Notes: generated by a model from the letters alone, not told the origin. A stretch of 64,000 nucleotides of DNA from Lingula anatina (GCA_051362555.1 CM120641.1:37206401-37270400), one strand, 5' to 3'. Positions 19,069-44,100 are shown, numbered from the stretch's first letter. Translations and numbers: made by a program.

Positions 19069-20385
19069 ATGGCGGGGAAGGGTGGTGTAGCACGTTTGCT
19101 AGCAAAACACAGGGCAACAATTATACGAGACCTTGATGTTAACCGTATTTTGCCCAGTTTATCCCAAAAGGGGGTGTTTACTCGTGTTGAAGAGCATGAC
19201 ATTTTGGCCTCAGCCGACCCTAGGAGCCGAACGGAGGTGTTTATCGACATCCTTGCACACAAGGGGCTGACAGCATTTCATGAATTTTGTTCCACGTTAG
19301 AAAACACCTATCCGCGATTGTTGACATGTTTTCTGTTGGACAACCCTGGTAAGTTCCAATTTATAACAAACTGCATGCAGGTTGAACGTACTTGTTTGAT
19401 ATACAAGATAGTTAGCTACTTTTGTATATTTATTATTAAATTAAAATTCAGTGACCCATTTGCAATGTTTACAATTTACATGACACCTGTTTGTTTGGGA
19501 TAAAAGTAACTAATCATTTTTCCTTATTTAGTTATGATAATAACATATGTATTTATTTATTTATTTATTTATTTTGCAAGAAAATGGAATGTTTGGTATG
19601 ATTTATCATATACCTATTATAGATAGTTTTGCCATTAATTCCCCAAGTCAGCCAGTCAAGCTATTGTTTGTTCCAATGTCAGGCCTCGTTGTGATGTCAA
19701 CAGACAAGAGCTGACATAGGACATGAGATGAAATACTTAAATACAATATGATGCATAGATTGGCGGATGGGAACGTGTATTTGGAAAAATTTGCATTTAA
19801 TTTGAAAAGAACCTACTAGTAGATTGATATCTCAGACGAGGGCTAAGAGGAGAGACTAACCCACAGATGTAGTATACCTCAGCAACTAAAGCATGCATCT
19901 TGAAAAGAAAGTTCATTGTTGAGAAAATGAAAAGGTGACACTGTCATCTTTATTTTCATCCACCAACTTGTATTCTGTATTAACCTTTTTCTGGTCATAA
20001 AAGTTGTTTAAGTCACCTCCTTGGAAAACCTATTAATTCCACAGAATGACACTGAAACTGATGATGATCTTTGCTAAAAATGTCATAACATCCATATTTT
20101 TCATCAGAATGGCTTGAAATTGTAGCTGTTGATAGAAAACATAAAGGCAAGTGCACTCCAAAAATGATTTTAATCAATATTTAGTTGTCATACCACTAGT
20201 GTATTTCTCAATTTGGCATTATTTTTCTTTTTCTAAATTATTTTTACTATATTGATTTGAATTTTCATGTAGTGTCAATGATATTCAATGCAGACATAAT
20301 GGTCAAAAATGTAGAAAAACTATGATCTTACAAATAAAAATGATTATCAATATAACTTGAAAAGCAAATAAATAAATATAATGGG

Positions 20386-20448
<63 letters not shown>

Positions 20449-23400
20449 GCCTGTGCCCTAGGGACCATTCCCAAAGCCTACTGTACTGACTGTAGATCGA
20501 TCTATCTCCATATTTTTCATCAGAATGGCTTGAAATTATAGTTGTTGATAGAAAACATAAATGCAAGTGTACTCCAAATATGTTTTTAAAAACCAATATT
20601 CAATATTTAGTTGTCATACCACTAGCATATCTCTCAATTTTGCATTATTTTTCTTTTTCTAAATTAATATTACTATATTGACTTGAATTTTCATGTAGTT
20701 TCAATAATATTCAATGCAGACATTAATGGACAAAAATGTAGAAAAATAATAATGAGCTTTCAAATAAAAAAAATATCATCAATAAAACTTGAAAAGCAAA
20801 AAATAAATAAATAAATAAAATGGGGGGGGGGGAATACTGCCTGTGCCAAAGGGACCATTCCCAAAGCCTACCGTCCTAACTGTGGATCGATCTATCTCCA
20901 AAGGGGCCCGTTAAATTGCAATCAACTGAAGCGGTTTAGATGTCATGCCTACTAAAGCAGCTAGGGGGTAATTAATTATCTTTTAGCGACTCTAGTAGGC
21001 GTGCCAGATATCTAAGCTGCTTAAACTGAAAGCAATTTAGCAAGAAACCCTTTGAAGATGGACCGATCCTGTAAGATCGATCTAGGTATGGAACCCAGTC
21101 AAAGCGTTATAATGTGACAGTTCAGAGTTCTATGTATTTTTGAAGGGCATAATATTTTGATGAACCAAAAATGATCACAAGCATATAATAATTGATAGCT
21201 ATATCTACCTGTATTGTGACGTAATATGCATTTGAAAAAAATAAATTGGTGATGGTGAATAAGGCTCAGTGTTATACCTGAGCTGGCATTTAACTACAAG
21301 TAATGGGCATATTAAAAGCACATAAGTTTCTGTTGTAGCAGGCAGTTTGTGTTTTTTATATTTATAGGTATGTTACTTTGATGTACATGTGCTTTAATGT
21401 TATTGATCAGCTTAAGTCTCATGTTACCCACATGTACCTATGGTTTTAAATCCATATGGTGCCCAATGAGGTTATACACTTGGTGGTTTATTTATGTAAC
21501 TAATCAAAGACATGAACCCCACATTAACACCTCAGTTGAAATGCATTTGGATTCTGGTTGGTTCTGAAAGTAACACCTTGAAAACAAATTGCTGGTCACG
21601 TCCATATAAGGAAGGGAGTTGGTTAGGTTGGTTAAACTTTTTTTTTTCAGTCACATGTACATGTGCTGTTTTCTTATAATAAAATGTGGCATGCTAGGCG
21701 TGTGAGGCTTTCTTGGTGATGTCCATTTAACCTTTACTACCAGCTGGCAATGGTCAGTCTTAATGACCGTTAGCTGACAGGTGTAGAAGTCTTCCAGGTG
21801 TGCTGATTTTCCCCAAAGCTGTTAGATATGACTAGAACTGCTGTTAGCAACTTCTAGTCTTACAGATTTTCTACTTAATAGCATTTATTATCAACTGGGT
21901 TTATGCCAGGGAAAGGGTAATTTATTGAGAAATGGAATAAAGTTGTAATCTATTTTTCAAGAATATTTGAAAAGATAGTTATACTAAATATTCTGATGTG
22001 GACTCAAAGAATTGCATCTTTTTAACAATAAGGACTATAGAACAGAAACTCCCCCCAGGCATGTTTTGTTATAGAAAAACATAGATGTATGATATATGAA
22101 TTAACTTGTCTATACAAAATATTTGCTGCCACTAATCTTTTCTCTGGCCAAACATAAATGTCTGTCAACAAAGTCTCTACTACAAACTGTTCTTTTGTAT
22201 TGAGGTAGACAATTCAGCCGCTCTACTATACCCTTTCTGTTGGTATTGAATGCCCTATCACCTGACAAGCCCTTGACATTCTATCCTGATCTTTGATGCC
22301 TTGGTGTGCAGGTGGCTTATTTGTTCTAGCAGTCGGCATCATTTGTACACAAAACATATTGTTCACACCCCTCCCAGGGCCCCCAATTACACCCCTTACC
22401 TTCCCAATTTTTATCTGCGCTTTGTTTATTCGCACAGATACAGAGGTGGTCCACTGACAGATAGGTGACATTTTAATAGAGAGTGAGGAGGCATATCATA
22501 GTTCAACTTTAATATTTTGACAATTTTAATTTTGTTCTTCTGCTGATAATATTGCGAGAGAAGGGTACTTTTTTCTATTTTTTGTTCAAGCATTGACATC
22601 AGATTTGTCCGATATAACATAATTATTGCATTTGAGTTGGTTTTATCATTTTAAGGGAAAATCATCACAAGTTGTGAAAAATAGCTTTGAGTTGACTTTT
22701 GTTGGACAAAACACATCTGCATTCTTCTTTAGAAACACAAAAAATATCATAGTATTAATTTTCTCAGTGAGTGTCTTTTGGTGAGAAAGATATGGGTTGT
22801 CAAAATTAACAAACATAATTCACCTTTCCCCCCATCCTTGTTGTGTCCCAAACAAAAATCAACCCGAACATTGACAATCAAGGACCTTGTGTACAATTTT
22901 GTAAAATTAATTTTATTAATCAAAAAGAAAATGTTAGGATTTTATTTAAAATGACTCCCAAATGTGTAGTTTGCTTGCTTCAATGAATGGTTTCGATATC
23001 TTGCCTTTAGTGACACATTTAGGCAATAGGTGTCACCATTGCATGCTCAAGCCTGTCGCTGTGTTTATAAATATGTATCCACCACAATAGTTTGCCCAGG
23101 GCATGTAAATACATTGATCATGACTTGTTTGCTTGAAATTCTAGTTATGTGGGCTTAAAGCAAGGTTTTATTCATATATATTAATGATAAGGGAGTTATA
23201 GGAAATTTCAGTGGCTAATGCTACAAAATATTAACCTCAATGGCATAAAGGTATATGAAAAAAATTGAGCAGCTCAATTAACTGTATAGAAGTAACCAGT
23301 TGATTTTATATGAAAATTTAACTGGTACACAAGATTATTATATCCAAACTGCAGGTGTGTATGAAATAGAGTATATGGAAACAGTCTATTGGTATATTTA

Positions 23401-26400
23401 TCTCAAAATATTAGCCTTTTATTGAGCACCTTCTAATTATTGAATCATTTTTGGACCTCCCGAGCAATCGCTTTCATTGAATATCTTTCCTAAATAGAGT
23501 TTGCATTGCCTGATCAACCTGAAGACATTAGGACATGGGTTCCTAAGTAACAAAATCGCAGAACTCTATGAATTTCATTCATAAAAAAGATATATTGCTT
23601 TTATGATCTCTTCTTTGATAGTGCTATTTGGTATGCTTAAGTGATGGTTTTAGTAGATCAAAGGAATGTGCATGGCTGAGGGGTGCATTGATGCTTCATA
23701 GCAGAGGGGGTAGTATTATCATTGCTACCTGAGTCTATTTGCTTCCTAAATATCAGTTAAATGGGAATGTAAGAATCAAGCTATTGAATGGCTGGGAACA
23801 ATGGCCTTCTATTGATTTACTTTACCTGCAAAAACAAACAACAGTGTTAAATGTATTGTGCAACCCATTGATCAGGTTTGGTGGGACTGTATTGTGTAGT
23901 ACAGCCTGCTGTAGATCAATGGGTTTATGGCAGGTACAGGGAGCCTTTTTCTTGCTGCTGACCTGCAGGGAATAGAGCTCATTGGAGCAAAGGGTGGCAC
24001 ATTCTAAGACCTATATACATGTACTTCTTGAACTTGTACTGGTCACCTCTGTTTCTGGATTTACTATGACTTCCTTAAAAAGATGGTATTCTGTTGGTGG
24101 ACTGCGAGGAGGGGGAGGAGGTGAGTTGATGAAGAAATTGCAGCCAGCTCTTTGTTGGTTAAGAGTTATTGCAAAATGTATATGCTGTCTTGCCAAGGCA
24201 GTTTCTTCTTATATAAGTTGTCAGATAGTGAGGTCTTGATGCTATGCTTGGTCATGGAAGGGGGGCAGTTCTGGGTAATTTTGGATGGAAATATCTAAGC
24301 TAGTATAGATGGAAAAACTACTTTTGTTTAACCAGTTTGTATAGATCTTCTAGCATACATTGTCATGTAGCCAGGTCTCAGGGTTATCGGGATATTGGGA
24401 TAAATATATTTGAATAAAATAGTTTTAGTAAATGACATTGTAATTGTAGATTAAGTTTTTGTTACCTGATCATCTTTAAATGTGTGATGGAGACTCAGAA
24501 AGATGCTAAAGCCAGATGAAATGGGTACGTGTAAGTTGAAAAATATCATTTTGGTAAATGTGAGGAAGTATATATTACTGGCAGTCTTTAAGTTGTCATC
24601 ATTATCACAAGTGTTGGGTAAACTACCAGTTTTGGTATTATATTTCAAATGTTACATGGTGTAATTTGTTTAATGGTATGATTACAAGAGAGAGGGATAG
24701 TCATCATGGAAGCCACTGATGTTAACTGAGGGCTGTGCTTGATTGACACAATGATTGATTTGCCTCACCTTCAATGACTGGCCAATAGTGGCCATGTTTT
24801 TAAACTATCTAAAATGTTGCAGTCTGGCAAGTTCTGGTGTTTCTATGAGGGTTACTATGTCTGTAAAGGTGTATTATAAAATGTACAAAGGAAGGATAGT
24901 TAAACAGATAAACTGTGTTAGCATGAAGATGGTATCATTTAACAACTGTGTGCAACTATGTTCTTTTTTCTAAACCCCCTCCCCTTTTATAGTTTTAGAT
25001 TACAAAATAAATTTACACTAAAAACTAGGTTAGATTGATTCCTCACAACACAGGAGGTATGTGCTACAAAAAAGCTATGAAAATTTTGAATGAATTTTTC
25101 CAGATGAATGTTTCTATTGCATTTTGCTTTTGTTATTGTTGTGTATGCAGCTCAGCATCTGGGCGGTGCATATAGGACTGAAGTGTGGCCAAATTTTAAA
25201 ATAACACAATTTCAGGTGGCTGGTGTGAGGAGCTAGCACCTCACATGCCTGATAGGTGTGGATTTATTTTCATGTAGTTAACATACTCTGAATTGGCTTC
25301 TTTACTACACCTGTGTGCACCATGAATGGCCCTTGAAATTTCTATCCAGTAGCTGTCCACACAGCACCTAATAGTGGTCAATCTTTTGACCAAACTTGTC
25401 CAGACTTCAGCCCTTTTGGGCCACATCTGGTACAAGCGGTAATAAATCTGATGACAAAGTTTTGTAATATCGAGTTTTACAATATACAGCTGATTAACAT
25501 TCCACATTTATCTATATAACTCAATTGTTTTCCAGACGTGTTATCAGAAGATAAAACCCCTACCCAGGCCCTGCAACTTGGTTTTGAACTTGCTCTAAAA
25601 GAGCGTGATGCGGTGCTGCGAGAGAATGCCCGTGCCATGGAGGAAAGGGACCAAGCCATTCGCCACTACCAGGAGATGAAAGATGAGAGAGACAGAGCTT
25701 TGGCAGGTTTAGAGAGTGTAGCAGGGAAGGCTCAAAAAATTAGCAACAGGTGAGCTTACTGTGAAACTTCTTTAGAAATTTATTACTATGGACGGGAGAT
25801 CAGTTTTGCTTGACATGAAGCAAGTTGGAGGCTGCAGAGCTAATTTGGCATAATTTAAGGAAACAATACACAATCACTTTATAAAAAATGAACAGCTTTC
25901 CAGATGTGTTTTTAAAAACATAATGTTTGTTTGTACATCTACTCATTGTTTTTGTAATATGAAAGTGTTTTTTGCATAGCTGTGTATTTTGACAGATGTT
26001 AAATTGGTGCCATATAGTTCTATATAACATAACCTGCCTGATGGTTTTGGTTTGAACTGTCATTAATTCATCTAAATTTCCAATATTAAGTTACATTGTG
26101 TAACACAGATAGACCCTCTCCATATATAACAGACACCAGCTTGCCCCCCCCCCCCCTTTAAAACACCACACTTTTATATCCTAGATAAACTACTGCTCAG
26201 TGCAAAACAGTAGTCTTTCTATAAATAATCAATTATGCTCTTTTAGGATCTATTTTATTAAAATATTTATTAGAATACACTATATATTACCCTGAGTTAT
26301 ATAATACAGTGATCATGTGCTGGCTGAAAGTTTTTTTTTCTGATCTGTGACTTGTGCAGTAAGAAGAGTGAACTACTGTAATTATATGAGTGTTGAAGAA

Positions 26401-29400
26401 GTACTGTTAACTGACGGTGGGTCGAGATGTGACTTATAAATGGTACTTAAAGTGTATGCAAAGTGTGCCTCATAGATAATGGTACACAGGAGGAGCATTG
26501 TCATTGTTATCTAGGCACAGTTAATGCAAACCATTCCACATCAGTTAACATCCTGAAGAGACGTCTAAAAGACTAAGTAAGGTACCTTGACAATGAATTG
26601 TTGTCTTCTATTTCTACTTTAGAAAAATAAATATGAAAAGAAAAACAGACTTGGATTAAAGAGACGGAACTCGGTGGCACTATATTAGGCTTTTTACTGG
26701 TATATGGAGGTAGTGGTTTCCGCATGTAGTTCATATATGAAGAGGTTCTATTATTCAGCTCAGCATTTACCGTCTGACCTAAAATCAACAGGATTCAGGT
26801 AAATGGAAACACACTACCATTTTAGCTGGGGTAATAACAATGTGTGTATAAGGGTACCTGCAGAGCTAGAGATACACTTTAGATGCAGAACTCTTTTTTG
26901 CCTTTTTTTGTCTGGCTGTGCTGCCTGTCATGTTGGAGGTGTGACCATTTGGTAAACAGACCCTGACAAACAGAAGTAACTTTCAGACAAGGGCCGACTT
27001 GAATTGGAAATACTGAGGTAAATTTTTAAGAAGGTATAAAACACATTGAAGAAAGTGAGGATTTGTTCTCTGAGGCAGACTAGCAGAGTGTCATGTAGTT
27101 TGGTGTAGTGAAGTCTTTTGGAGGTTGATAAAACTTGACTTGAATTTTGATTTGATATTTCAGCAACTTATTGGTAAAGGTTTAACTTAAGATTATGGGA
27201 GGTTAATGATGTAATGTTTCGCATACTAGTAATTAAATGTGAAGTTGTGGCAGTGTGTGTATGAGAATGAATTTTTAAATGTAAGGATAAATTTTGAAAG
27301 CATCCCGACTACTGACATAGAGTGTTTATACTAATGGCAGTCTGCTTAAGTGAGTTACAGTCACCATAAATTGAAAATGAGTATCAATAATCTTGTTTCC
27401 AGAGTAAAAATTCAATAGTTACAAGTCATCAAAGAAGATCAAAAAAGAAGAAAAAAAACGTGCAGACAGTTTGAAGAAAACTGATAGAACATCATTTTAG
27501 GACTTATCTATTTTATAGTCATACAGATCTAGTATTCAAGTCATGATTTTCATGTTTGCCACAGAGTTTAAAAAAGAAACTATGGTGAGATAAAGTGAAT
27601 TAATGACCATTTGCAAGAATGAATTGCAGGACAATAAAGTTTCAATATTATGACAGGAACAGGACAGAGAACTGATGGGATTTACTGTCTGGAAGAAAAA
27701 TGATGGTGACAGTAGAATATATTATGATTTGAAGCCAGAAGAATAACTAAAAAAAACATTTTTCTACTTATTTGAATGGTCTTAAATATAAATAAATAAT
27801 GTATAGTATTAAATTAGGAATGAGAAAGCAGTAATTGTCAGAGAATGGGTCTAGACGTCTAACCTGTTTGTGGTGAGGTGGTAGATTTTATAACTTTTAA
27901 GTTTATGAAACTGTTTAAAAACACACAATTTTCAGTAAGCGTTATGTGGATTTGATCCATTATTTGCTTTCTTAGTTTGAGCATGTTCCTTGTGTATGTT
28001 TTTTTTTTTTTTTTTTTGTTGTTGTCCTTGGCTTACAAAGATGTGCCAAAACAGAAGGATTTTGTTCTACGCATGTGTGACGGTAGTGTTATATTGCATG
28101 GTAGAAGCATATTAAGAAAATCAGACATTTGCAGAGAAGGAGATGCATTAAATAACAGTTGTTTTTGTCACTGTGTGTAAAAGAGAGGAGAAAGATTGTG
28201 CAACTTTGAGAAGTAAGTACAGATTTTATTTAGATTTTGCATTGTATTTCTTTTAACATCTGGGGATAAACCCTAAAGGAGTAGTAAATAAAAAAGCACT
28301 CTGTGACAAAATAACAGATGTTGAATTAAGCACAAAATAAGCCTTTTTCACATCAAGCATTATTCCTTAGCTCTATTATCTAATAGCCAGGTTATTAAGT
28401 TAGTCTCTCAAAAGAATGATGCAGCTATATTGCTTAATTATAATGCTCAGTGTGAACATGCCTTTATTTTCTGTAATTTTTTTATTTTTAAAACTGATAT
28501 CAAACATGGGACAATTATTTCAAGATTAAACACTTTTATTTTTAGTGGGTTGCATTACTGTTATGTAATTGAAGCATGTGTTGATATCAATTTAACAGAT
28601 CTCAGACAATGCTTTAGGAGTGGACTTCACATACCTGCCGGTTTATCATGATGACTCTGTGGATGGAGTCTGACCACAATCTGAGATAACAATGTTATAT
28701 AGGGACTCATTCACATGTATACGATGTGATTGTCTGACTTTGATCTAGTTTCAGAGTCTAAAGGCACATAAAAGCCCCTTTTTACATCGAACACTAGTTT
28801 TTGTACCACATCAGTTTGACTGGTCTTCACATGTAATTACAATAAGTTTTTAATTCCTTTCACAACCCCTCATGGACCAATCAAAATGATTCTGGTTAAA
28901 ACTGACCATGTCCACTGTAAAGGCTCCATTTAGGTGACTTTCTTATGTAAAAGCCAGTTGTCAATCTCTCAAACTGAAGCAGTACAGAAAACTTAACTTC
29001 TCATAGTAAAAAAAGGATATCTGTAGTGCTCAATTCAGTACCAAACCATCACAGTAGAGAATGATTATGATTTCTAGACTTCCCTAAGGTAAGGCAATAC
29101 AAACACCTTTAACCAATTCATAAAGGAAGTTGGCAAGACAAAATGGAATCAGATTATGTCTCTTTTGGTGGAAATCTTAATCGGTCTAAATTTCAGTCTA
29201 CTGAAAGTATAAAGTTCTAAGTAACTTTGTCACAAGTGGACTGTAAATGCACCTTAACATGAATGACTTTATATGATACTGAGAATATAACTTATTATGT
29301 TGTCACATAATCATTGGTAGTCACTGTCATTATTATATGGTTTTAAAAAGAGAGTGGAGAAGATGGAGAAATGAAGAGGACCCAAAGCTGAGGTTATATC

Positions 29401-32400
29401 ATCATGTTAAATTTCTTTCAGAATAGTCAAAAATGATAACATGTAGAAGTTCTGGTACTTTTCTTGGATAATTTTAAAAAAAGTTTTAAAAAGTTTATCT
29501 CAATGCTAACAGTTGTCCAGGCAATCATCATTAAGACTTGACAAATGTGTCATACAGCATAGGCATGGAAAGAATTAGTACTGAACCGATAGAGGGAAAA
29601 ATGATGGCCATGTAAATGTCTGTCAGTAATAACTGTCCAGTCCCTGACCACATCTCATGACTATCAGAAACAGAGGAACTGACCCAACCCACTGGTCAGC
29701 AACCTGCTATTAATCATTAACTCTAGCATACAATTTAAATAATGAATAGTCAGTGACCGGGACATAATTTCAAGGCATCTTAATGATTTAAGAAAGCTCT
29801 TAATTTCCAGTTCCTCTGTTGCCTCCTTTAGGTAGTTCTTTCTATAACCTGTAGATCTTATCTGTTGTATTGGTTATGTAATGGAGTCCTTCAACATGAC
29901 CATTTTGTGAAATATGAGGAATGCTTCAACTATGTGGAATGCCCAGTAGTTTTGTCAGGGAGACAGTGTTATGCATTGTGGTCAGTGTAAGGCCAATTCT
30001 TGACCATTCACAAGTAGTAGTGGAAGGTGCCCCGTGGATCATCTCAAGTGTACCATTTAGCTACACACACACATATCCAACTGAAGTGACTGTGATACAG
30101 TGGACAGTGCCCAGTGAGCTTGACCACTGAATAAACTGTACATTGAACACTGAGTGATAGTGGAGTGTAGGCAGTGGAAGGGACTGGTCACTCCATTAAT
30201 AGAGGCAACATGTACTATCAACAGTACGAGAACTATAACTACATGTATTATTTCAGGGATGACCTCAACATAACCCCCTCCAGCCCATCCGGGGAAAGAA
30301 AAAGAAGTAAGTCCCCAACAAGAAGAGTTATAGATAAACTAAAGGCCATGGATAGTGAATCTGAAGTAGAGGAGGTGAGTCAAAATGAATTTTTTTTTTT
30401 TACTTTTTACTATTGAATGTGTTTGATAGCGTGTTTTTGTCATTCATACATACACAAGTTCAAGTATTTCTTTTAAACCTAATTGGAAAAAATAATGCAA
30501 GATTTCTCTTGGCAATTTTCTAGGATATCATTTTGGGTAATCCTTATTGTGAAGTAAATTAATTAAGAAGATAAAAGGTCTTTGAAACATTGAAGAGCAC
30601 TTATGTTTGTATGGGAAATGTAGAAATGGTCTTGGCAGTATGTTTTTAAAATCGTGATTTGTGCTTTTAGCAAACGTATATTTATCATGACCTTGACTCT
30701 CTTTCGCAGTAAATCCCACGTTTTATTATTAACGCTTTTCATAAAAGTGGGACTGTGTGCAAAGTTTAAAGCAGGGAGGCAATGGGGAAAATGTTTGGTT
30801 AAGCTATCGAGAAATCTGCCACCTTTTTTAGAACTAAACAGGTGTATAAGCACAGGTATAGCTGTCATCAGCTACAAACAGTAGCTTGCAAAGTTGATTC
30901 CTGACAGTCTGAAAGCCATAAGCACCCTACAGAGAAGGTGGACAGCTTAGTCATTTAAGTATAGGTCAGAGCATGTCCCTTTGCCTATGTAAAGGTGTGT
31001 GCAGGTTAATTCATCCAGGCAGGTGAAGCAAGGTGCTAAGAGAGCAACTACTTCTATAACTAACACACACTGGCTGCACATAAAGTGGGAGGTATTGAAG
31101 TGGAGTGAGTTGAGGGTTAGACAAACAAAGCATGACATAACTATAAATTACACCTACTTTATATTTCTGATGTGAGAGAAAGAGCATATTAAGGATCCTG
31201 GGAAAAGTGTATAGCTCTGTGGTTCATTATTTTTACAGTTATTATTATTTTTGAAATTTATTTTTGGCTGGCATGTGCCCTATGGTAATGTCATAATCAT
31301 GGTAGAATTATTTTATATCTTAAGAAAAATTATATTAAACATAACAGGCAAATAAATATGTAATGGTCTTGTATTGGATTGCAGTGAGAAGTGTTAAGTT
31401 GAGAGTGTTACATTGGTATGAGAAATAAAACGGGCACAAGAAAATGGTATGTGTAAAAAACAGCACAATCTACTGAAAAAAACATAATTGAACTTGTCAT
31501 GTGAAATCCTGTGGCCTCTTTTTTCAAAAGCACACTTTCAAGTGTTTATCAGATTTAACTTTGATGAAAAAGTGAATTTTTTGCTCCTTTGAACATAAAA
31601 TAGTTTAGGTCTATATAAAACTTGTATAAAGGAGTAGCTGCACCTGCTTGCATTTATGTTTGGCAAGATAGTATTTATTTTAATTAACACTGAACATTAT
31701 TAATTAGATATTGGTGCTAGATATTGAGTCTAGCTCTGGCAAATTTTTATCAGATTTGTAATAAATTCTTAGGGTATGCTTCAGGGAAACAACCTGTCGT
31801 GACTTTATCACAGCCTGTCTGTCACACCGGTAGTTTCAGAATTCAAAAAGCGTGGCAAGAAGTGGAAAAAGTTGGATGTTGGTCCATCAGATACACTACT
31901 TCAGATAACACAGCCCTCCTGTTGAACTTTGAAACTTCCTCCCATTTTTTTTCTGATATGGCCAATGAGCTTGTGGTTTAAACTTAGTGCCTGTGCATTG
32001 TTTTTCATTTTGAGCAAAAGTAGCTACCATAATTCAAAGGGGAGTGGTTACAAGCAAAACCAGATCGCACAAGACAAAAACAGTAAATGGGGCAAAGGGT
32101 GGAGGTGTAGACTTTAGATTCTTCAGTTGATATTGGAAATATAAAACTATGGAAACACACTGTGATGATTCTGATAATTGTCTGGTTTCACCACAGAATG
32201 TGTTGCTTTAATGACTAAACCTCCTGTTGTAAGAGAATTTGGTTGAGGCAAATATGGCAACCTAACCCCCCTACTGATCTCAAAGTAATTGTAGCTCATG
32301 TGATAGCAGTATCCAGCAAGAATGTATAAACAGTTGACTGCTGTCAAATTGGAACCAGATTCTGTAGCTAGAACATAGTACAGACTCCAGTGGTGGTTCA

Positions 32401-35400
32401 TACTTGGTTAGTAGAAGCTCAGTTGGGAAAAACTAACTTTAACTGGAATTACTGGGAATGTCCTTGCCAAGATCTAGAAGACGACCAAAGGTATGCTTTG
32501 TTCAGAAGTAGTATAGCTTCATCTGTGTGAAATTTTCTCAGCTTGAACTGTGTAAGGGGAGAAGAGACTCGAGTTTTTATATTTTTAGATCAATATTGTC
32601 CTTGTTGTGTTTGTTTCAAGGAGTGAGTAATGGGACATTTTTTTGATTGTGTGTGTATTTCTTATTAAAATGTCTGTGTATTGATAATTACGCAAGAAGA
32701 CGTACATCAGCCATCTATAAGACTAACCTTTCTTTGAAGATTTGCAACTTCATTGTGAGAGTCTGATTTGCATTGGAAACTTATAATTACTTAAACACCT
32801 AAAATGGAATGTGGGGAATGAAGTTAATTCATTGTGTGTTGATATATATTACCAGCGGTGCTCTCACATTCTTGTGAATATATATGTTCAACTGGTGCCA
32901 AACCCTGGTACATATTGTACATGCTTGTGTTTCCACTACCTCAGCCACTTGTGCTTTTCTTCATGGTTACACTGTGTGTTGCTTTGAGATCAAGTTTTGA
33001 CCCTGATGTCAGTGTAAAATAAACAGGATTGAAGTTTGTATCAAACTTTGGAAGGGTTTTGTTGATGTAAACACTTGCTCAAACTGGTTTGGTAGTGTTA
33101 CACACTAAAGACTTTTTTTCTCAAATGAATCCATCAAACCTTAAAAAAAGGTTATATAAGGTCCTATATTTGATAAGTTTGTTTATTTAGCACTGCAGCA
33201 AGTTATACCTCTCCTACTGATGAGGATTAGGGTATTGTTTCTGGTGTGCTATCAGATCTGCTGAGTGGTTAACTTTACCCTGATAGCTGGTGCCATCTGC
33301 TGGAGATAATTAGAGTTGAATGACTAGTTGAGGAGTGCACTAATAATTTGCATTGCTGCTGATTGAAATTCAGATATTTTCTTTAATTTTGCTGTCTACA
33401 ATGGACTTACAGTTTTCCTTTTTTTGCTTAATAAATTTACCAGTGACATTGTTTGAAGTTTAAATATAAAACGTACAAACTCCTGATAAACAGGGCAAGT
33501 GCATATTTGCTATTAAAAAATGAAACCAAATATTTTTTTTGGAAGATTTTTTTAATGCAAAACTTTACTCTTATATTGCAATGTGTTATTATCCCTTCAT
33601 GTTCAACAATCTGCAATATATATATTCCACTTGCCTGTTGAGTAATGGTAACCTTTTTTATTGCACACCACTTGCCAGTGTGCCAGTGGTGCCTTGAGTG
33701 ACACTGTACACCCATCCTTTCAGTTATGACACTCATGCATATAGTAGTGTCTTGTGGTGGAGATATATGTTTTCCTTCTAACCACAGCTGCCAAACTAGG
33801 TCATTTTCTGCATGTTCACAAATGGGTGCCTTCAGTGCTCTGCGACACTACTAATGGGGGCTGGGAACTGACTTTGAAGTAGCCCATTACACCAGGACGT
33901 TGTGATTCAGTTTGTGGGTAAATTAGCTAGGGAAATTATATTGAAGCACTGGACTCGTCAGGGGTGTGAATGTCTTCCTTATACCTTAAGAACACCAACC
34001 TGCTGTATGAAAGCCAAGAGATTTTAGTAAGTAACTTTGCTATGGTATTTGTTTTGGGAGTGGAAGATAGTAGTATTAATGGGAATTAATGTGGAGATGG
34101 AGACATGTTTATCATTCTTACTAGTTAGATGCCTTTCAAGATATTCCTTCTAGCAAGGTGCTGCGATGATAACGGTTAGTTCAAATTAAAAAATTTGCTC
34201 TCTGATTTGAAATTTACGTTGCTTCTTGATTGGATATATTTTATTACTTGCTACCAGGTATATAGGAATACTTTTATATTTCCCGTAGGTGTGTTTGTTA
34301 TATCACCGTAAGGTATTTGTGAAGGTGTTTAAACATGTTTGTTCTACTATGTATAATGTTAATATACAGGGTGTTGGTTTATATTTATGAGGCCCAATGA
34401 ATGACCATGATATAAATTTGTTCAACACAAAAGCTTTGATTATGCATTTAATGTTCATTGCCCCCCAAAAAAAACTATTTTTATTTTGTTTTTGGAATTT
34501 TCGAGACATTTAACATGGTTTGACAGATTTGCCATGTTAATTATTTCAAGCTGCCTGTTCTACATTTAAGTGATGAATATTTAACTGTGACATTAAAAAC
34601 CCCACCTGCTGCTGCTAAAAAAACTGCACTTGGATTAGGAATTTAGAAGCATCTGCCTTTGTAATATATGACATATTCTGAACATGTTTGGAAACTATTT
34701 TACCAGTCATCATGAAGCAGGATGGTTGCCTTTGAAACACCTCTGGTATGTAAAATTGGACTGCTGTGTTACTATAGAAAATAGAATTTGAAACTTATAT
34801 TGAACTTACTTTTAATAGGAATGAAAAAATGGCTTGACAACTGACAGCCATTGCACCTTATTTTGAGCCAAAGATTACTCACCCCTTTATTTAAACAAAA
34901 TTGAACTCATTAGTCATTAAATTGAGGCATTCCGTTGTTGATTAAGGTGAAAAGCTTTGTTGTGCACTTTCAAGTGAGGTGTTTTTCTACCTTAAGATAC
35001 AGGAATACATTTACTCAGGTGAAATCTTTATTCATGATCTTTTCGTTGAATGATTGTTAGGTACCTTTTTTCACAATAATAATGCTGAATAGAATCTCGT
35101 GTTTGTTATTTTGTTGGGGGATGTTATTTAAGGTGCATACCTGAGTGGCGTGTTTGAAAAAGAATATCAGCAGAGATAAGTTTGATTGTGTCCACAGTGG
35201 TGTAAGAGGCACAATGAGACAAATAAATCAGGAAACTGGATGGAAGTATGTCATGACAGTGAAAAGACAAATATTTAAACTATGTAAGAATGTGTTTTGA
35301 GAGGGGCCGGTTAGAGGTTAGGAAGAAAAAAACGTGTACAGGCATTAAACATACACTGCACACCTGTAGTGTAGACAGGCATACAGATGTTCAACTTGGA

Positions 35401-38400
35401 GCTTTTACTGGCTTTTTTGAAATCATGAACTATTACATGAGGTTGAAACTTTGAGGGGATTTGAGAAAAGGGTGTTTGGGGAGAAATGTTGCACTCAAAA
35501 ACTACTTTTCTCTATGACAATTTTTGTACCATATTGACCAAACGTATTAGGGAGAGAGAGGCATGGGTAGAGGTGAGTAAACTCTTCTCTCTATATATAA
35601 GTTTTTACTTTTGTTTGTAGAAAGGAGATTGGCACTATTCTCATGTCCCATGAATTTCAAGCAGTTTTTGTGCCATTTGTCTGTTTGGTGTAGGGCTTTA
35701 GATTTAGGTGACCTTTCATGCTACCCTGACCATGTCACTGTGTTTAGTAAGGAGGGCCTCTTCCAGTATTGTGTTCATAGTACTTAGCAAAAATGTCCAG
35801 TTTCATACACAGGTAGAGTGGCAGAAGAACTTTGGCACACAGGTTTTGAATTACACTCTTTTGGTGTAAACTTGAATTGCCACCATGACAGTTTGAGAGG
35901 TGATTTTAACGGAAACACCCTTATGGTCTTTGTGCTTTAAAAAATTGACATGATTTGTGGCTGTTGAAAATTAGGGTAAGTGATCATAGATGAAAATACT
36001 CTAGAAGCTCACTGACATAACTGCTTGAGGCATGTGAATGACAACTGATAAAGTAAAGAGATAGTTAAACTTTTGCTGTTTCATTATTTAAGAGATATGT
36101 CTTACATGAAACTTCCTCAAATCTCTCTGGTGCAGTTGGGATATGAGAAAAACCTTTCTCTAGCATCAAAGAAACTCAGTGGCAGTTTTAATTGAGGGTT
36201 GGAACAATGGGACACTTATTCGTTCTTTTGACCAAAAGTTAGTACAAATAACAGACATGATCATCTTTAAATATTGGACTTAAAAACAAGGTTAAAAAAA
36301 AACAAAAGGTCTGTTTCTTCTGACTAGGGAATACGAGAGATGCAAAAATAAATAAAGGTGTCTAACAGTAACAAAATGTTGGTATTATAGTCACCAATAG
36401 AATAAAGAACTTCAAAGCTGGGTTAACAGTTCAGATAAGCCATGTGGCAGGTTAAGCCACTTCACATGTTATTGGAATTTGATTACCACTCCACCCCTTG
36501 GGTCATGAATGAAGTGAGATATATAGATGAGTATATTTAGCAATGACATCATGGGAATCTTCATGAATTCTTACAAATGGAATTGGGTCAAATAGTAGTA
36601 ACATTATGCCATGCCTCATCTACCAATCACAATCCTTATATCAACAATTCGGCCCACTGACATTTCTGTTTTGCTGCTGGCCCAGACATGTTTGGGAATG
36701 TTTTGTGACCCTAATTTAGATCAGCGTGGTGGGTTACCTCCCTCAGTTTCCCACTCGTTTCTCTGCCGTCAACTGTTGGGATTTTTGTTGCTGTGGTTTG
36801 GTGATTTATAGTAGGTGGACTGTTTAATGAAAGGGACTGTCACAGTATTGTACCTTTCATTATGACGTTGGATATTTTTATCACTTTTGATTACTTGACG
36901 GATAGCTGATTTGGATTATGACTTATTAATAACAAAGCTGGTGTGGTTGGCAAAGTCAGGCTTAAACTTGTTCAGGTGCATGGCTTGCATGTGAAGTTTT
37001 CGTGCCTAATGAATTGTTTTCCTGATTATTACTGTTGATTAATGTTATCTGACAGCAAAGTCTCACCTCAGAGGTTACAGGTTAATTAATTAGGGAATTA
37101 ACAATCTAGAAGAGGATGGATCAAGGGGACATCAGGAGGTGTAATTTGCAACGAAACCCTTGGTTTTTTGTTAACACTTTGTTTGCTTAGTCAAAGTGCG
37201 GAGGAGTTATACTGCATGTACTGACAGAAATATTGCCAGTCTTGTTTTTGATTGCTGACTTGATTGTTACTGTTGTCTCCTTGGTCAGTAATGGAAGAGA
37301 TTGCATGATGTCTTGTTAAAACCTGGATTAGCAGCGGCACAGACATGATAACTATTAGTGCTTCTGTTGCTGCTTCAGTCCCTCTTTTTTTAATCTCCGG
37401 TATTCAGTGCATTCAAGCTTTTATGTGGAGAGGTTGTAACTTTGACTGATTGAGATGTTACTGTTTTAGCTGCTTTGAATCTTGTTGATTTCTATTGCTT
37501 CCTTGAATGAGGATGATGCTTCCATCTTTTTGCAATATTCAAAACTCGGAGAAATTTGAAGATATGGATTGAAAACAGAGACCTTATAGCTGATGTTATT
37601 GTTATTGTTGATTTGTCATCTTAATCCCTCTAGTCGTCCAACATGAATCTGGAATTGACTTGCTGGTCACATGACTGCACAAGTCCCAATCTGATTGGTC
37701 ATGTGACTAAACCAGAGTCACCGCTGTGCTGATCATAGGCTAAGTGACAGTTGAAGCAAGTGATCTTGGATAATGCCCAGCAGTTGAACAGTTGTCTTTC
37801 GTTGGAATTGTGCAATCAGTAATTTCGAATATCAGACACAGTATCTTCCTATGGCCAGGAGATTGCTTTACTGTTGACTTGAGAAGTCGATATGAAGTTT
37901 AAGCTGTGTAATCTTATCACAGACTATCTGAATCGTGGCAATCAGGTATGGTGAATGTGAGAATTTTTCAGTGTTTTTTGTTGTTTCTGTCAATGTGGAT
38001 TCTGCTGACTAAGCAGTAATAAATACAGAAAAAATATTGATGGATGCTTTTTGAAGTACATAAAAATTGTTCTTGACCAAATATGAAGGTTTCATTCTTT
38101 TTAAGTTGGGGCACAGCATTCATTGGGTTTGTTTGCAAATTTATATTTTGAACAAATTGGGGATAATCAGATTGAGCTGGTGAAAGGTATCAGATATCGT
38201 TAACCACATTTTCACCATGACGGATAACATTGAATAATAAATTTCTTTACTTAGTGTTTTTCTTCTGATGAGATTATGACAGGAGAGTTGTGTTTTCCCT
38301 AACATATGTAATACCAACTTCTCTTATCTTGTCTAGCAGAAATGTAACATTATAAGTGTTACTTTAATTTAAAGAAACTTAAGTGCTCTTCAAATAGTTT

Positions 38401-40758
38401 GAATACAGTGCAGAAATGTTTTAATGCATATGTCAACTTTGTAAATCACTAATAATATACAGTAGTAGGATTATGAAAAGGGGGGGGGGTCAAGCATAGC
38501 TTAAGCTTATTTGATAGAAGGGGATTTTTTATTCTGATAAAAGGGAGTTTTAACAGCTAAGTGGGAAATTTTAGTGCCATGTTGTACTAATGTTGTTTTT
38601 GTCACAGTAAAAGTATTGAATCAGTATTTTATTTATATCCATACAAATACGACATATTTAAGTTTTATCAAAGTCATTCTATCCAGTCCTATTAAAAGTT
38701 AGCACACTTTTTCAGATTGATGGCATTAAAGAGAATAAATGCACTTGTTTCTTTTTCAGGGTGGAGAGAGAGTAGTCTGGCAATCTCATAATGTGCACTT
38801 GACTAGGGTAAGTCTTCTTTGAAATTTCATTTTCAATCTTTTGCATTTCTATCAAATTATGCTGTAAATTTGTATATAAAAAAAAAACACTTCTTACGTT
38901 GTTAAGTACCTCATTTGTGATTTAGTACAAGAGATAGAATTACAATATGTTTTTTGCTCCTGTTGTTTGCATAATTTTTCATCAACTTGCTGCAGCATTC
39001 CGCCTACACTGTTGTATGGGCACTTAGAGTCAGTGCCCAAAATTGTGATAACAGCTGAAAACCAGACATGCAAGGGTGGTACCAAGAGACCAAAAAATCA
39101 ATGTTTGTCTGCGAAATTCAGCTAATTTCCCTCAGAGACAGTAACATGACTCACACCAGTAAAGACTGTGCCTTGGAAATACGATTATTCTAGAATCGAT
39201 ATTCCATGCAAGTGAAGGAACTCCAGAGCAGGAAGCAATAATTGCTCCAGAAAGAGCTTTTTGATACATAATTTGTGTCTTAAGTTCTTTTCAATCAATA
39301 TCTGCATAATCAAAGATGTCCTTTTTGTTTGAAGTTTATGAAATGAGTATCAGAACCAAAATTTCACTTGACATGATAAGTTCTTCACTGATATCTGATA
39401 GCCTTGGATCAATTTGAAACCTTTTCCCATCTGAGACATATGCTCGAAGCAAGTGCATCTTGTGAGTTGGAGACAAACAGTTTACATCTTTTACCTCCTT
39501 AGAAAATATAAAAACTGCTCTAGATTTTTTCTCTTCCATTTAACATTCCAGATGAATGTAAAAAAATATTGATGATTCATACACATATAGCAAGATATCA
39601 GAATTCTGTCATGAAGAGTTGTCTTTTTTTCCATGATTTAATCGGAATTATCTTTACGATTTATGCAGGGATTTATCAGAGAGATTTGGCTAGGGCATGC
39701 CACAAAATATTTAAATTTTTGTTTGAAGAAATAAATTCTTCCAATAAGATGAAAACGAACGTCCTTGCTATCGAGGTTGTTTTAGTGATTCAAATCTTTG
39801 GCATGCTGTTGTTATTCATAGTATTGGACATTAGGTAACTTAAACTGTAGAAATCAGATTTCATGGATCTGGGGGTTAATTTCTGAAGCATTAAAATCCT
39901 GTCATTGCTCATACAGAATACTAAGTTGATGCTGGCCAAATTGGATATGGCAGGCACTGAAAGTGAGAATGCATTAAACTTGAAGATTTGTGTGTCAACT
40001 TTCAGATTACAATCCATGGCATTTATGTCTCAAGTTTTTATGTTTGTCCATAAAGAATGTGTAAACAGAAATGTTCCCACAAGACGCCAAGTTTTATTTT
40101 CACATTGGTGAATTAAGTCTTGTAAATTCTCAAATATAGTAGGTTGGAAGTAGGTATTTACACCCTCACAGAAACTGCTGACAAATTGATTTGCAAAAAG
40201 TATGATGCTTCTCACTCTGCTTATATGTAATCGGCTCAGTGGAGATGCAGCAATTACTCATAGCCTATTTGATAATGCAGTGTAAATAATGGCATGTTTT
40301 TAACAAGAAATATGGATGTGAATCGAGATTATTTATTATGCATCTGCAAATTACAGGAAAGAGCCCTTGGTAATAGGTTTCAAACATTATATGAATTTAT
40401 ATTACATTGTTCTTCTTTATCTTGGGTATCATGTTGTCTCACTCAAGTGCATTGAATATTGTCATCTTTGTTATATATTGGAAAGTAATAGAATAACAAT
40501 CAATGCATAAATAGTTAGATAATTATTAATATATTAATTGTTATTCTATTTCTTTCCAATACATAACATTCTTGTGGTTTGCTTATGCTATTTTTGGTCA
40601 CTTGATAATACTTTTTGGCTTTTTCCAAGTAAGTTCGCAAATGGAGAAAAGCAGCAAAACTTTTTTTTAAGAAAAAAGGTGATTTAACTTTTCCATGTAA
40701 TTAATGTTGAAAAATTCAAGAGATATTGAGGCACTTTGGCACATGATTGTTGTACATT

Positions 40759-40801
<43 letters not shown>

Positions 40802-41124
40802 TTTTTGATTCCCAGGTCCCTGGCTTTGGTTTTGGTATAGCAGTCAGTGGTGGCCGTGACAATCCACACTTTGCCAATGGCGACCCTGCCATAGCCATCT
40901 CAGATGTACTCAAAGCGGGACCAGCAGAGGGGAAACTACAGTAAGTCAACCGTTCAGATACACAGAGAGATAATATGGTCTTTGTTGTAGATGATGATAC
41001 CTGAGATAGAGGAATGGGTATTTTGTGGAAAAGAAAATGATAGCTTTGCCATTTGAAGGTAGAATTAAGTAACACTAGATTGTCGACCAAAGCAGCAGGC
41101 TCACAGTAAGTACCAGCAATCAAT

Positions 41125-41156
<32 letters not shown>

Positions 41157-44100
41157 GACACACACACATAAACATAAATGAGCGTACATGTACCATTTAG
41201 AAATTTGCTTGATGCTTTTAGTTCTATTTTAAGTATTTACTTCTTTAACTTTTGGTCAGTATTGTCTTTTGGTTAATTGAGCTAATTGAAGAAGAAAGGA
41301 AAAGAAAGATGCCTTAAGTTGGACAGATAAGTCAATTTGGAATCTATTTCACTCTTATATTCTTTATTACTTTATCGTCAATGTAATATTCAGGATCTGG
41401 ATATTGTTGACTGATGATTTGACATTTCCTTGGGGAAATTGTGATAATTTTTTTCTCATATCTTATCCCCTCCTCAGAGATCACCTAAATAATATATCTG
41501 GTTGGGACTGGTGAAAAAGTTCAGCATATGGCGATACCAAATTAGATCTGTGTAAAAACACCAGGGTTAATTCAATTACCTTAATGATCAGTCTATCTTT
41601 TGATTAAGTTGCAGTAGAAAAAACAGTTAATATTGAGATGGGTGGTGGAATGTTTCTTTCTTAAATATCTTACGCCACCTGGGTATTTACTGAGAATACA
41701 GACTGTGTCTGAGGAATTTTTTGTTGTTTTTGTATTACCACCACAGTATGATATTCTGCTATTGGTGGTGGTCCAAGTAATTTTGTATTCCACTATAATA
41801 CCTTGCCTGTATTAGAACAAAAAGAAAATTTCTGTTATGGATTGGTTAAAAAATATATCATGTATTTGGGAAAAAAAAGATGTAAAAATGCAAAATGGCC
41901 TTAAAAACTTAAAATTAACCAACATATTGGGTCGTTTTATTAGTATATGTGCAATTTTGTCAGTATAGAGTACATTCCATTTTCTCTTCACCAGGATCAA
42001 TGATAGAGTGCTAAGTGTGAATGGATATAACCTTGACAATGTGGACCACTCTACAGCCATCCAAATTCTCAAAGACAGTGGGAACACTGTTAACATGGTA
42101 AGTATAATTGTTTTTGCAATAAAGCCAAATTAAATTGGCTAAAATTAAGAAAATTGAGATTTTGTTTTCATAACATAAACATTCAGTTACACAGGTTTCC
42201 ATGAACGCCTTCAATTCTTATCGTTCTTGGGTTATCATTCTCTTGATTTCGGGAAGGATTTGCCTTAGAAGTAGGATTGTGATTGTTCAGATAGTCTTAT
42301 GTGCATTTTAACTATCATGACTATATTACTGGTTCATAAAGGTCATAATTTACACCATTAGTTAGCTATTTCCTTTGGGCTCTCTGCCCCAGAAGATTGA
42401 GATTCTGGTTGATCTTGAGGTGATAATGCATTTGCTCATAGATGTATTGATTTATTTTCAGGAAATACGAAGGAAAGTTGTTATTCCTGGTCACGAAGAA
42501 CCAGCTCATACAAAGGTGACACTTACAAAGAAAAATAAAAAGGATGGTAAGTTTCTGAAATTTCAGTGTACAGAAATAATGTTAGTATTCTCTTGTTCAG
42601 TTGATTTTTTTTTTACAAAAAAAATGCATAAAGAATGCTTACATACTTCCTAGGAATATGCATATGGGTTAAAGTAATTGATGAAACTATTCTCATTCCA
42701 GAATTTGGTCTGGTATTGGGCTGCAGACTGTATATAAAAGAAATAATTGGGAACAGTCTAGCAGCTCAGGATGGGGGCCTGAAAGAAGGAGACACAATTT
42801 TAAAGGTATTTTATCGCCACTGAAAATAATTATCGCAGGTATCAACAATTATATGTTTAAAGGTGTTTTGGCTGTTTAATATATATGGAGGATAAATTGA
42901 AAAAGAAAAAAATTAAGGTACTAAAAACCTGTTCATCAAAAATGTCTGCAAAGTGTGTTCCGTCAATATGGCATATTATTTTTACTGTCACACAAAATGA
43001 TAACTTGGTTCATAAATGCTTGTTTGTTTTAGATTAACAACACTGCTTCGGACTTCTTATTGAATGAAGCCAAGAAACTATTAGAAAAATCCAAAGACAA
43101 ACTGCATCTAGTGGTGGTAAAGAAGCCAACTGGTAACATAAACCACAAGCGTCAGAACAGCCAGCCCAGAGAAGGGGGTAGGTACAGGAAAATGATAAAA
43201 CTGGGAATTATCGCAATAAAATTTGGAATAGGTGTCTTACGGTAGAGATGTTTTATAGTCTCAAAATACTTAATTTTGTAATGAGCCTAAATACTGATGC
43301 CCAAAGTAAATAGATGATGTTCTACACATCAAAGGTGTTCAAGGATGATAGATAGTAGTAAAAAAATTATAGATTCCACTCCAGTGTTTACATGATCTTT
43401 GGATGCCTGTTGTGACTGTCATGTTGACCAAACAATTTTTTTTATACTTATTTCTTTAAGCTTCTTTACTCTGCTTGTATTGGCATTTCCCCAACAGAAT
43501 TAACAGTAAGGCAAATAATTCAACATCTGTATTCTCAGAGTGGAATGTATTTTCATTCTATATATGTAACTTGGAGGTTATTTTCACTATAGAAAAAGCT
43601 TGTTTAAGTCTGTGGGCTCTTATTATTCATGCCCCAGGCCATCTTCCATACAGTGTGTATTAAGCAAACATATTTCCCCCCAAGAGAATTGAGTCCATCT
43701 GCATTTGTATTTTGATGGGATTTTTATGGAGCATTAGCATGCACATAATTTGGTTTAGCCCATCAAGGCACTTGTAGTCTAAATGGCCCCTTTAATTGCA
43801 TTTCTAAACTTTATATCATCATTATCCCCATTCCTTCAAACAAATTTATTAATTTTAAAAAAGGTTATGACTGTTTGTTTATTTATTTATTTATTTGTAT
43901 ATTTTTATTGATTGATTTAAATTCTTTATTTTTATTAATTGATTTAAATTCTATCATCACTGTAACTAAATCAGTATCTGTTATTTGAAAATGGAGAGTT
44001 TGTTCTATTGGTGATTAGATGGGTACCTGCTGGAATATTGGAATATTCCACCTAAAGGTGATCACCAGTTCAGACACTAGCGGCTAAGAGGTCACAGCAT

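What the first reader, a model, noticed from the sequence alone, without database searches (positions are those of the whole stretch)
19069..38807. ZO-1 with an N-terminal CARD and coiled coil: a CARMA/DLG5-like architecture built on a full ZO-1
Seen in sequence: exon 19069-19348 encodes a CARD-like domain ([34 protein letters not shown]...[30 protein letters not shown]). Exon 25536-25749 encodes a coiled coil. Splice phases 1, 2, 0 lead without a break into the phase-0 PDZ1 exon of ZO-1. Established: vertebrate ZO-1 and fly Polychaetoid lack a CARD, whereas CARMA1-3 (CARD11/14/10) and DLG5 are CARD-CC-MAGUKs without ZU5. Inference: this is a CARD-CC-PDZ3-SH3-GUK-ZU5 scaffold that could couple epithelial junctions to CARD signalling (BCL10/MALT1-like or caspase), and could resemble the ancestor of the ZO/DLG5/CARMA group.
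Basis: partly seen in the sequence, partly recalled or inferred. Interest (0 to 1): 0.85.

Follow-up and report, generated by a model that had tools for sequence, protein, structure and literature searches.

The report
Ancient CARD-bearing long form of ZO-1
This brachiopod splices a CARD domain and a coiled coil onto its cell-junction scaffold ZO-1; the CARD form is also found in molluscs, arthropods, amphioxus, fish and a bird, is already published for zebrafish, appears to survive in humans only as a pseudogene, and likely helps ZO-1 cluster rather than signal to immunity.

Summary
The four exons are GT-AG bounded and in frame. Exon 1 is a CARD (Pfam E=1.4e-15; AlphaFold pLDDT 90). RNA reads show all three joints, including 30374/38760 (40 reads, 6 of 8 runs), plus CARD-less starts. 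The protein is RefSeq Lingula anatina ZO-1 isoform X4. It is no oddity: 57 of 120 listed ZO-1 relatives carry this CARD (molluscs, arthropods, amphioxus, fish), as do gar, sturgeon and pigeon. Zebrafish ZO1b-Alpha with a CARD is published (PMC10703405), so 'vertebrate ZO-1 lacks a CARD' is wrong. Not found in print (9 searches): the bilaterian-wide spread; the well-conserved coiled coil (median 66% identity, predicted dimer 0.53 vs control 0.00); orphan whale, bird and lizard copies; and a GENCODE 'TJP1 pseudogene' in human whose peptides match this CARD exon. The nearest named CARD is DLG5's. Arthropods keep the CARD but lack BCL10, so clustering is likelier than BCL10 signalling.

The parts
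19069..19348 (+). Coding part of the first exon of the long isoform: whole CARD (aa 1-93), phase-1 donor
   Evidence: joint to 25536 in reads
25536..25749 (+). Exon 2: about 8-heptad coiled coil (aa 102-159) with ERD repeats, predicted parallel homodimer
   Evidence: reads
30257..30374 (+). Exon 3: poorly conserved Ser/Arg/acidic linker (median 17% identity)
   Evidence: reads
38760..38807 (+). First PDZ1 exon (start of PDZ1); common acceptor for the long and the CARD-less starts
40816..43176 (+). Exons for the rest of PDZ1 and for PDZ2
46580..51907 (+). Exons for PDZ3, SH3 and GUK (approximate span)
56127..57820 (+). Exons for ZU5 and the C-terminus (last coding piece 57719-57817)
33970..34026 (+). 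Alternative CARD-less first coding exon (RefSeq X8), spliced to 38760
   Evidence: 11 reads in 3 of 8 runs
32458..32490 (+). Alternative CARD-less first coding exon (RefSeq X10), spliced to 38760
   Evidence: 6 reads in 2 of 8 runs
27003..27018 (+). 3' end of an alternative exon spliced to 30257 (skips CARD and coiled coil); its 5' end was not mapped
   Evidence: reads in X7 and X8; GT donor
24066..24119 (+). RefSeq X5 first exon (coiled coil without CARD); model only, joint not listed in reads
26737..26799 (+). RefSeq X6 first exon; model only
35486..35572 (+). RefSeq X7 first exon; model only
37892..37945 (+). RefSeq X9 first exon; model only

Best explanation
This is the brachiopod ZO-1 gene, whose most upstream start yields a long isoform with a CARD and a short coiled coil ahead of PDZ1-3, SH3, GUK and ZU5, while inner starts yield CARD-less ZO-1; the module is likely ancestral for bilaterian ZO-1 and likely works as an extra clustering unit. 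Shown: exons, splicing, alternative starts, CARD family and the spread of homologues. Predicted: the coiled coil forms a parallel homodimer that ties two ZO-1 N-termini together. Inferred: the CARD, which conserves both basic and acidic residues, binds other CARDs (its own, or DLG5's) and so raises scaffold valency at junctions, with promoter choice setting which cells make this form. Inferred history: CARD shared in origin with DLG5's; coiled coil lost in vertebrates and insects; CARD exon kept in fish, birds and probably whales; pseudogenised in humans.
For: Splicing and alternative starts. Range: 57 of 120 listed ZO-1 relatives carry the CARD (molluscs, amphioxus, horseshoe crab, spiders, scorpions, barnacle, copepod, insects, cypriniform fish); 112 of 112 new hits to the carp CARD region are ZO-1-type proteins of teleosts, sturgeon, gar and pigeon with it. 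The ZO CARDs form one clade (SH-aLRT 96; 91 in the larger tree). In 34 of 61 short fragments the first Gly after the domain sits at Lingula's phase-1 donor position. The coiled coil is more conserved (median 66%) than the CARD (42%) and close to PDZ1 (71%). Two-copy model: score 0.53, best control 0.00, interface 102-159 in heptad register, runs agree in at least 87% of contacts, pLDDT at least 79; this mark was reached by 21 of 30 solved homodimers and 0 of 23 monomers (eukaryotes 17 of 29, animals 7 of 16, monomers 0 of 30); the alignment was not used (collected). DLG5 kinship: the three long PDZ-bearing non-ZO hits that were looked up are all DLG5; the ZO profile scores DLG5-group CARDs at median 67 bits vs 57 and 51 for other groups, and the DLG5 profile scores ZO at 61 vs 48 and 45; the ZO coiled-coil profile hits DLG5's coiled coil at 19-22 bits, reached by 0 of 200 plain shuffles and 0-4 of 200 block shuffles. 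DLG5 self-association through its N-terminus is reviewed in PMC4046881. Zebrafish ZO1b-Alpha is promoter-selected and mainly non-neuronal (skin, otolith, jaw). Human: PhyloCSF peptides of the GENCODE 'TJP1 pseudogene' (chr15:30,072,627-30,072,923, minus strand) share, by eye, a 23-residue identical stretch with the narwhal orphan P0225, which is 51% identical to the pigeon TJP1 N-terminus.
Against: No partner of this CARD is known or was tested. The dimer may pass by likeness to solved CARD-coiled-coil dimers (CARD9, 6n2m), and the CARD is not in the confident interface. Vertebrates and insects keep the CARD without the coiled coil, so dimerisation cannot be the whole story. ZO plus DLG5 as one CARD clade has support of only 59 and is unresolved; no CARD9/CARMA/BCL10 sequences were in the trees. 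A tandem-CARD family's profile scores ZO and DLG5 alike (57 vs 58). Zebrafish alpha mutants had no electrical-synapse phenotype, tagged Alpha protein was not detected, and its cDNA was assembled from genomic exons. No read spans CARD to PDZ1. That the whale orphans splice to TJP1 is not shown.
Confidence: 0.58

Rival explanations
1. The long isoform is a CARMA-like signalling scaffold that recruits BCL10/MALT1, or an initiator caspase, to junctions.
For: CARD followed by a coiled coil as in CARD9/CARMA; ZO and CARMA are sisters on SH3-GUK (PMC2859873); CARD9 is the top single-sequence PDB hit (E=0.003); Atlas features list CARD9 clusters at 0.76-0.77, lead only. Basic residues at Lingula 20, 26 and 54 are conserved in 16, 17 and 22 of 25 ZO CARDs; by recalled numbering these match CARD11 R35, K41 and R72, which bind BCL10 (PMC3411838). 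APAF1 is the best PDB match of the profile (42 bits), so a caspase partner is open.
Against: Ecdysozoa lack Bcl10 and CARD-CC (PMC5978004), yet insects, chelicerates, crustaceans and myriapods keep the ZO CARD. With the same profile DLG5 CARDs score 58-75 bits against CARD9 36, CARD11 30 and BCL10 21. The coiled coil is about 58 residues, far shorter than in CARD-CC proteins (recalled).
Confidence: 0.2
2. The CARD(-coiled coil) acts inside the molecule as an autoinhibitory cap on SH3-GUK or on the coiled coil, keeping the long isoform closed until a signal opens it.
For: CARD9 has a solved autoinhibited CARD-coiled-coil dimer (6n2m); DLG5's PDZ3-4 and SH3-GUK bind its N-terminus (review PMC4046881); zebrafish Alpha is upregulated in beta mutants yet does not rescue them.
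Against: Alpha still binds Cx34.1 in cells. The CARD persists where the coiled coil is lost.
Confidence: 0.13
3. The CARD exon is a largely dispensable relic of the ancestral CARD-MAGUK.
For: Human copy annotated as a pseudogene; no synapse phenotype in zebrafish alpha mutants; many CARD-less isoforms.
Against: Kept from brachiopods to birds (44% identity to a whale copy); 18 of 18 shown exon variants synonymous; the CARD path is the commonest listed entry to exons 2-4 in these runs.
Confidence: 0.06
4. The CARD exons belong to a separate upstream gene and the join to ZO-1 is read-through or a model artefact.
For: No single read spans the whole N-terminus; many genomes predict the CARD part as an orphan ORF.
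Against: All three joints are in reads with no other acceptor listed; the same fusion is modelled in dozens of species of several phyla.
Confidence: 0.03

Closest known systems
Zebrafish ZO1b-Alpha (tjp1b; Michel et al. 2023, PMC10703405)
   Same: CARD on the most 5' alternative first exon of ZO-1, then PDZ, SH3, GUK and ZU5; CARD-less isoforms from inner promoters; carp and other fish ZO-1 CARDs fall in the same clade.
   Different: Lingula has a conserved coiled coil after the CARD; the fish and pigeon proteins tested have none. The passages and sections read treat the CARD as a label, with no range, origin or partner.
DLG5 (CARD-DUF622/Takusan-coiled coil-4 PDZ-SH3-GUK)
   Same: N-terminal CARD, the nearest named CARD; ERD-repeat coiled coil with weak similarity; junction scaffold.
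   Different: 3 PDZ plus ZU5; coiled coil about 58 aa against about 500; no Takusan match; separate CARD clades (96 and 98).
CARMA1-3 (CARD11/14/10) and CARD9 (CARD-CC family)
   Same: CARD-coiled coil order; CARMA is sister to ZO on SH3-GUK; same fold (TM 0.74-0.80).
   Different: CARD only distantly similar (30-36 bits, below APAF1); ZO keeps 3 PDZ and ZU5; ZO CARD occurs in arthropods that lack BCL10.
Amphimedon CARD-PDZ-SH3-GUK MAGUK (de Mendoza et al. 2010, PMC2859873)
   Same: CARD-bearing MAGUK proposed as the ancestral form of the DLG5+ZO+CARMA 'CARD group'.
   Different: One PDZ as described; sequence not compared here; the text does not give ZO a CARD (supplementary figure seen only as text labels).

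Membership tests
ZO (TJP1/ZO-1) MAGUK | 3 PDZ + SH3 + GUK | tested here: met
   Pfam on P0001
ZO (TJP1/ZO-1) MAGUK | C-terminal ZU5 | tested here: met
   PF00791 E=3.7e-36
ZO (TJP1/ZO-1) MAGUK | Best relatives are ZO proteins | tested here: met
   The 120 listed hits are ZO-named or ZO-architecture proteins; no SH3-GUK tree was built
ZO (TJP1/ZO-1) MAGUK | Localises to cell junctions | not testable with these tools
   Inferred from family
CARD-bearing ZO-1 isoform (ZO1b-Alpha type) | CARD on an upstream alternative first exon, spliced into shared ZO-1 exons | tested here: met
CARD-bearing ZO-1 isoform (ZO1b-Alpha type) | CARD orthologous to the fish ZO-1 CARD | tested here: met
   One clade with carp, sturgeon and pigeon CARDs, SH-aLRT 96; the zebrafish sequence itself was not in the set
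CARD (death-fold) | Pfam CARD above cut-off and six-helix-type bundle | tested here: met
CARD-CC/CARMA | CARD of the CARD9/CARD11 clade | tested here: inconclusive
   Profile scores CARD9 36 and CARD11 30 bits, below APAF1 42 and DLG5 58-75; no CARD-CC sequences could be put in a tree
CARD-CC/CARMA | Single PDZ, no ZU5 | tested here: not met
   3 PDZ plus ZU5
CARD-CC/CARMA | Occurs only with BCL10 | tested here: not met
   ZO CARD in arthropods; Ecdysozoa lack Bcl10 per PMC5978004
CARD-CC/CARMA | Binds BCL10 and activates MALT1/NF-kB | not testable with these tools
DLG5 | DUF622/Takusan, long coiled coil, 4 PDZ, no ZU5 | tested here: not met
   (P0001 vs P0267)
DLG5 | CARD sister to the DLG5 CARD | tested here: inconclusive
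   Mutual best group by profile; tree support 59

The most novel reading that the evidence does not exclude
CARD-coiled coil-ZO-1 is the ancestral bilaterian ZO-1 and textbook human ZO-1 is the truncated exception: the CARD exon survives in arthropods, molluscs, amphioxus, fish, birds, lizards and whales (often mis-called 'caspase-2-like' or left as an orphan) and is dead in humans. Its CARD polymerises or pairs with DLG5's CARD, giving junctions a BCL10-independent death-fold assembly switch chosen by promoter, and a host gene into which a CARD9-like module was swapped to make CARMA.
Probability: 0.3. Interest if true: 0.75.

Novelty: new member of a known kind. Interest (0 to 1): 0.45.

Why it matters
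ZO-1 is the central junction scaffold and is described from CARD-less human and mouse forms. [quoted passage not shown] A human pseudo-exon beside intact whale and bird copies makes a lineage-specific loss testable, and existing zebrafish alpha mutants allow a direct test in epithelia. The Lingula gene itself is an already annotated member.

Tried and rejected
No whole genome is held, so Lingula BCL10, CARD-CC and DLG5 could not be sought; the Staal 2018 supplement held as text has no Lingula entry. The run search listed no indexed RNA holder, only runs of the same species label. Pfam gives no family above cut-off for exons 2 and 3. The first homologue search with exon 1 alone found 2 of 110 candidates, a sensitivity limit. 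ESM Atlas: no usable hit for the pigeon N-terminus, only leads under 0.9 for Lingula. The careful CARD tree did not finish; quick trees on 85 columns leave deep forks open; one of 172 selected rows had no usable domain, one ZO-like orphan set and two unrelated long branches fall inside the ZO side, and one search used 43 hand-picked rows. My guess that the new retinal TJP2 exons of Mudge 2019 are the CARD exons was not testable from the text and was dropped; the first region is only 117 nt. I first read the missing CARD9-R35 arginine as decisive against BCL10, then weakened it because the CARD11 patch maps, by recalled numbering, to partly conserved positions. Searches for Polychaetoid with CARD found 0 papers; Drosophila, mouse and cnidarian ZO proteins were not among named hits and remain untested. 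In the two-copy model the CARD made no confident contacts, which is no evidence either way. Three look-ups of earlier scan findings returned nothing.

Full report
Observation. The four exons lie exactly as stated, with AG/GT ends and phases 1, 2, 0, and give one open frame into the start of PDZ1. Exon 1 scores Pfam CARD at 57.5 bits, E=1.4e-15. An AlphaFold model from a 48-sequence alignment has pLDDT 90 and superposes on APAF1, CARD9, CARD11 and caspase-9 CARDs at TM 0.74-0.84, though no Foldseek E-value reaches 0.001. The product is in RefSeq as Lingula anatina ZO-1-like isoform X4, XP_013406126.2, with CARD, 3 PDZ, SH3, GUK and ZU5; 4 of 12 listed isoforms carry the CARD.

Expression. Eight of nine offered RNA runs of the same species label were laid. 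Joint 19348/25536: 30 reads in 7 runs; 25749/30257: 36 in 8; 30374/38760: 40 in 6. CARD-less starts also enter 38760 from 34026 (11 reads, 3 runs) and 32490 (6 reads, 2 runs), and 30257 from about 27018 (2 runs). Four further first exons are RefSeq models only. Stranded runs place the exon reads on the + strand. The reads come from other individuals; all 18 shown differences inside exons 1-4 are synonymous. Short reads cannot link CARD and PDZ1 in one molecule, but no rival acceptor was listed for exon 1 or 3.

Range. Of 120 listed relatives (464 found among 7988 scored), 57 carry the same CARD at 40 bits or more: bivalves, gastropods, cephalopods, amphioxus, horseshoe crab, spiders, scorpions, barnacle, copepod, mayfly, bugs, wasps and cypriniform fish. 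The other 63 lack it in the model listed; several start within or just before the coiled coil, so absence from a model is not absence from a genome. A search with the carp CARD region gave 120 hits, 112 new, all with the CARD: teleosts, sturgeon, gar and pigeon. A search of 1.84 billion representatives gave 195 hits at E<=0.001, 150 listed, mostly single-exon fragments; in 34 of 61 high-scoring short fragments the first Gly after the domain falls at Lingula's donor position, which points to a conserved intron. Named orphans include millipede, centipede, an annelid, fish, five whales, and bird and monitor-lizard proteins called 'caspase-2-like'; the bird one is 85% identical to the pigeon TJP1 N-terminus, the narwhal one 51% and 44% to Lingula. 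In the supplement of PMC6886504 three PhyloCSF regions at human chr15:30,072,627-30,072,923 (minus strand, in one frame by their coordinates) are annotated as a TJP1 pseudogene; by eye their peptides match this exon, with 23 residues identical to the narwhal orphan. That this lies about 100 kb 5' of TJP1 is recalled, and I could not inspect the lesion.

Coiled coil. Residues 103-156 have median identity 66% across 34 relatives, against 42% for the CARD, 17% for the linker and 71% for PDZ1. It is present in brachiopod, mollusc, nemertean, bryozoan, hemichordate, amphioxus, chelicerate and myriapod sequences, degenerate in barnacle and scorpion, and undetected in the copepod, insect and vertebrate proteins tested. 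Two copies of residues 1-165 fold as a parallel coiled coil over 102-159: score 0.53, best control 0.00, contacts agreeing in at least 87%, pLDDT at least 79; the mark was reached by 21 of 30 solved homodimers and 0 of 23 monomers (animals 7 of 16); the alignment was not used, and a pass may come from likeness to solved dimers such as CARD9's.

Kinship of the CARD. The three long PDZ-bearing non-ZO hits looked up are DLG5 of spider, acorn worm and amphioxus. ZO and DLG5-group profiles score each other above the other CARD groups at the median (67 vs 57 and 51; 61 vs 48 and 45), with single outliers above; DLG5-group membership of unnamed rows rests on the tree. With one profile DLG5 scores 58-75 bits, APAF1 42, CARD9 36, CARD11 30 and BCL10 21; the human CARDs may be more diverged, so this is indicative only. 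Trees give ZO (96) and DLG5 (98) clades but only 59 for their union and leave it open with 89 rows. The ZO coiled-coil profile matches DLG5's last coiled-coil segment weakly.

Mechanism. Most likely the upstream promoter adds a clustering unit: a predicted coiled-coil dimer plus a CARD with conserved basic and acidic residues that pairs with CARDs of its own kind or DLG5's. The partner is inferred, not tested. The BCL10 rival has the CARD-CC order and partly conserved basic residues for it, but arthropods keep the ZO CARD without Bcl10. A caspase partner and an autoinhibitory role stay open.

Literature. PMC10703405 (abstract, passages, section 6 part 1, sections 8 and 10) describes zebrafish ZO1b-Alpha with a CARD, alternatively initiated, mainly non-neuronal, without a synapse phenotype. 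PMC2859873 (text parts 1-3 of 4; supplement 1 as text labels only, figure unseen) groups ZO+CARMA with DLG5, proposes a CARD-bearing ancestor and labels a 'CARD group'; its figure could show a CARD on some ZO proteins. PMC5978004 (passages, section 5) and bioRxiv 2023.03.06.531260 (passages) derive CARMA by fusion of a CARD9-like protein to a ZO-1/Dlg5-like MAGUK. PMC1978500, PMC11128289, PMC4046881, PMC5238729, PMC5898269 and PMC6156466 (passages) give ZO no CARD in the passages seen. PMC3411838 (passages, section 6) defines the CARD11 patch. PMC6886504: passages and supplement rows, file 1 not searched. Nine searches of the open library found no account of the invertebrate form, the coiled coil or the human pseudo-exon as a CARD; subscription papers were not searched.

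Verdict. Real and expressed; a member of the ZO-1 family and of the published CARD-bearing isoform type, not of CARMA or DLG5. The added value is the wide range, the conserved coiled coil and the apparent human loss. Interest 0.45.

Noticed in passing
window 18768 (minus strand) down to about 13400: A LEO1-like gene starts 300 bases from the ZO-1 CARD start codon, head to head (weak Pfam Leo1 hit on one exon, E=0.027; likeness of the N-terminus recalled). The long ZO-1 isoform may share a bidirectional promoter with a housekeeping gene.
   Followed up: partly
window 17751-18404 (minus): Exon of the LEO1-like gene with about 20 tandem 8-residue Ser/Pro/Arg repeats.
   Followed up: no
window 9010-11559 (+): A20/AN1 zinc-finger gene of ZFAND5/6 type (Pfam zf-A20 and zf-AN1).
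   Followed up: partly
window about 3700-7050 (minus): NAD-dependent epimerase/dehydratase-like gene (Pfam Epimerase on 3732-3866).
   Followed up: partly
window 20070-21091: Intron stretch hit by many partly matching reads on both strands with loose ends: a multi-copy repeat transcribed elsewhere.
   Followed up: no
proteins P0433, P0276: Bird and monitor-lizard proteins named 'caspase-2-like' are most likely the unjoined 5' exons of TJP1.
   Followed up: partly
proteins P0160, P0189, P0193, P0198, P0237, P0249, P0254, P0262, P0268, P0272: An unnamed family of short proteins, several with two tandem CARDs, whose CARDs resemble the ZO and DLG5 CARDs about equally.
   Followed up: partly
proteins P0082, P0095, P0102, P0109, P0112, P0121: Decapod and mantis-shrimp ZO-1 models listed here have long low-complexity N-termini with neither CARD nor coiled coil; loss or missed exon not resolved.
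   Followed up: no
PMC6886504 supplement (human chr9:69,145,704-69,151,696): Human TJP2 has an eye-specific alternative first coding exon with a myopia-linked variant; relation to the CARD exon not tested.
   Followed up: no
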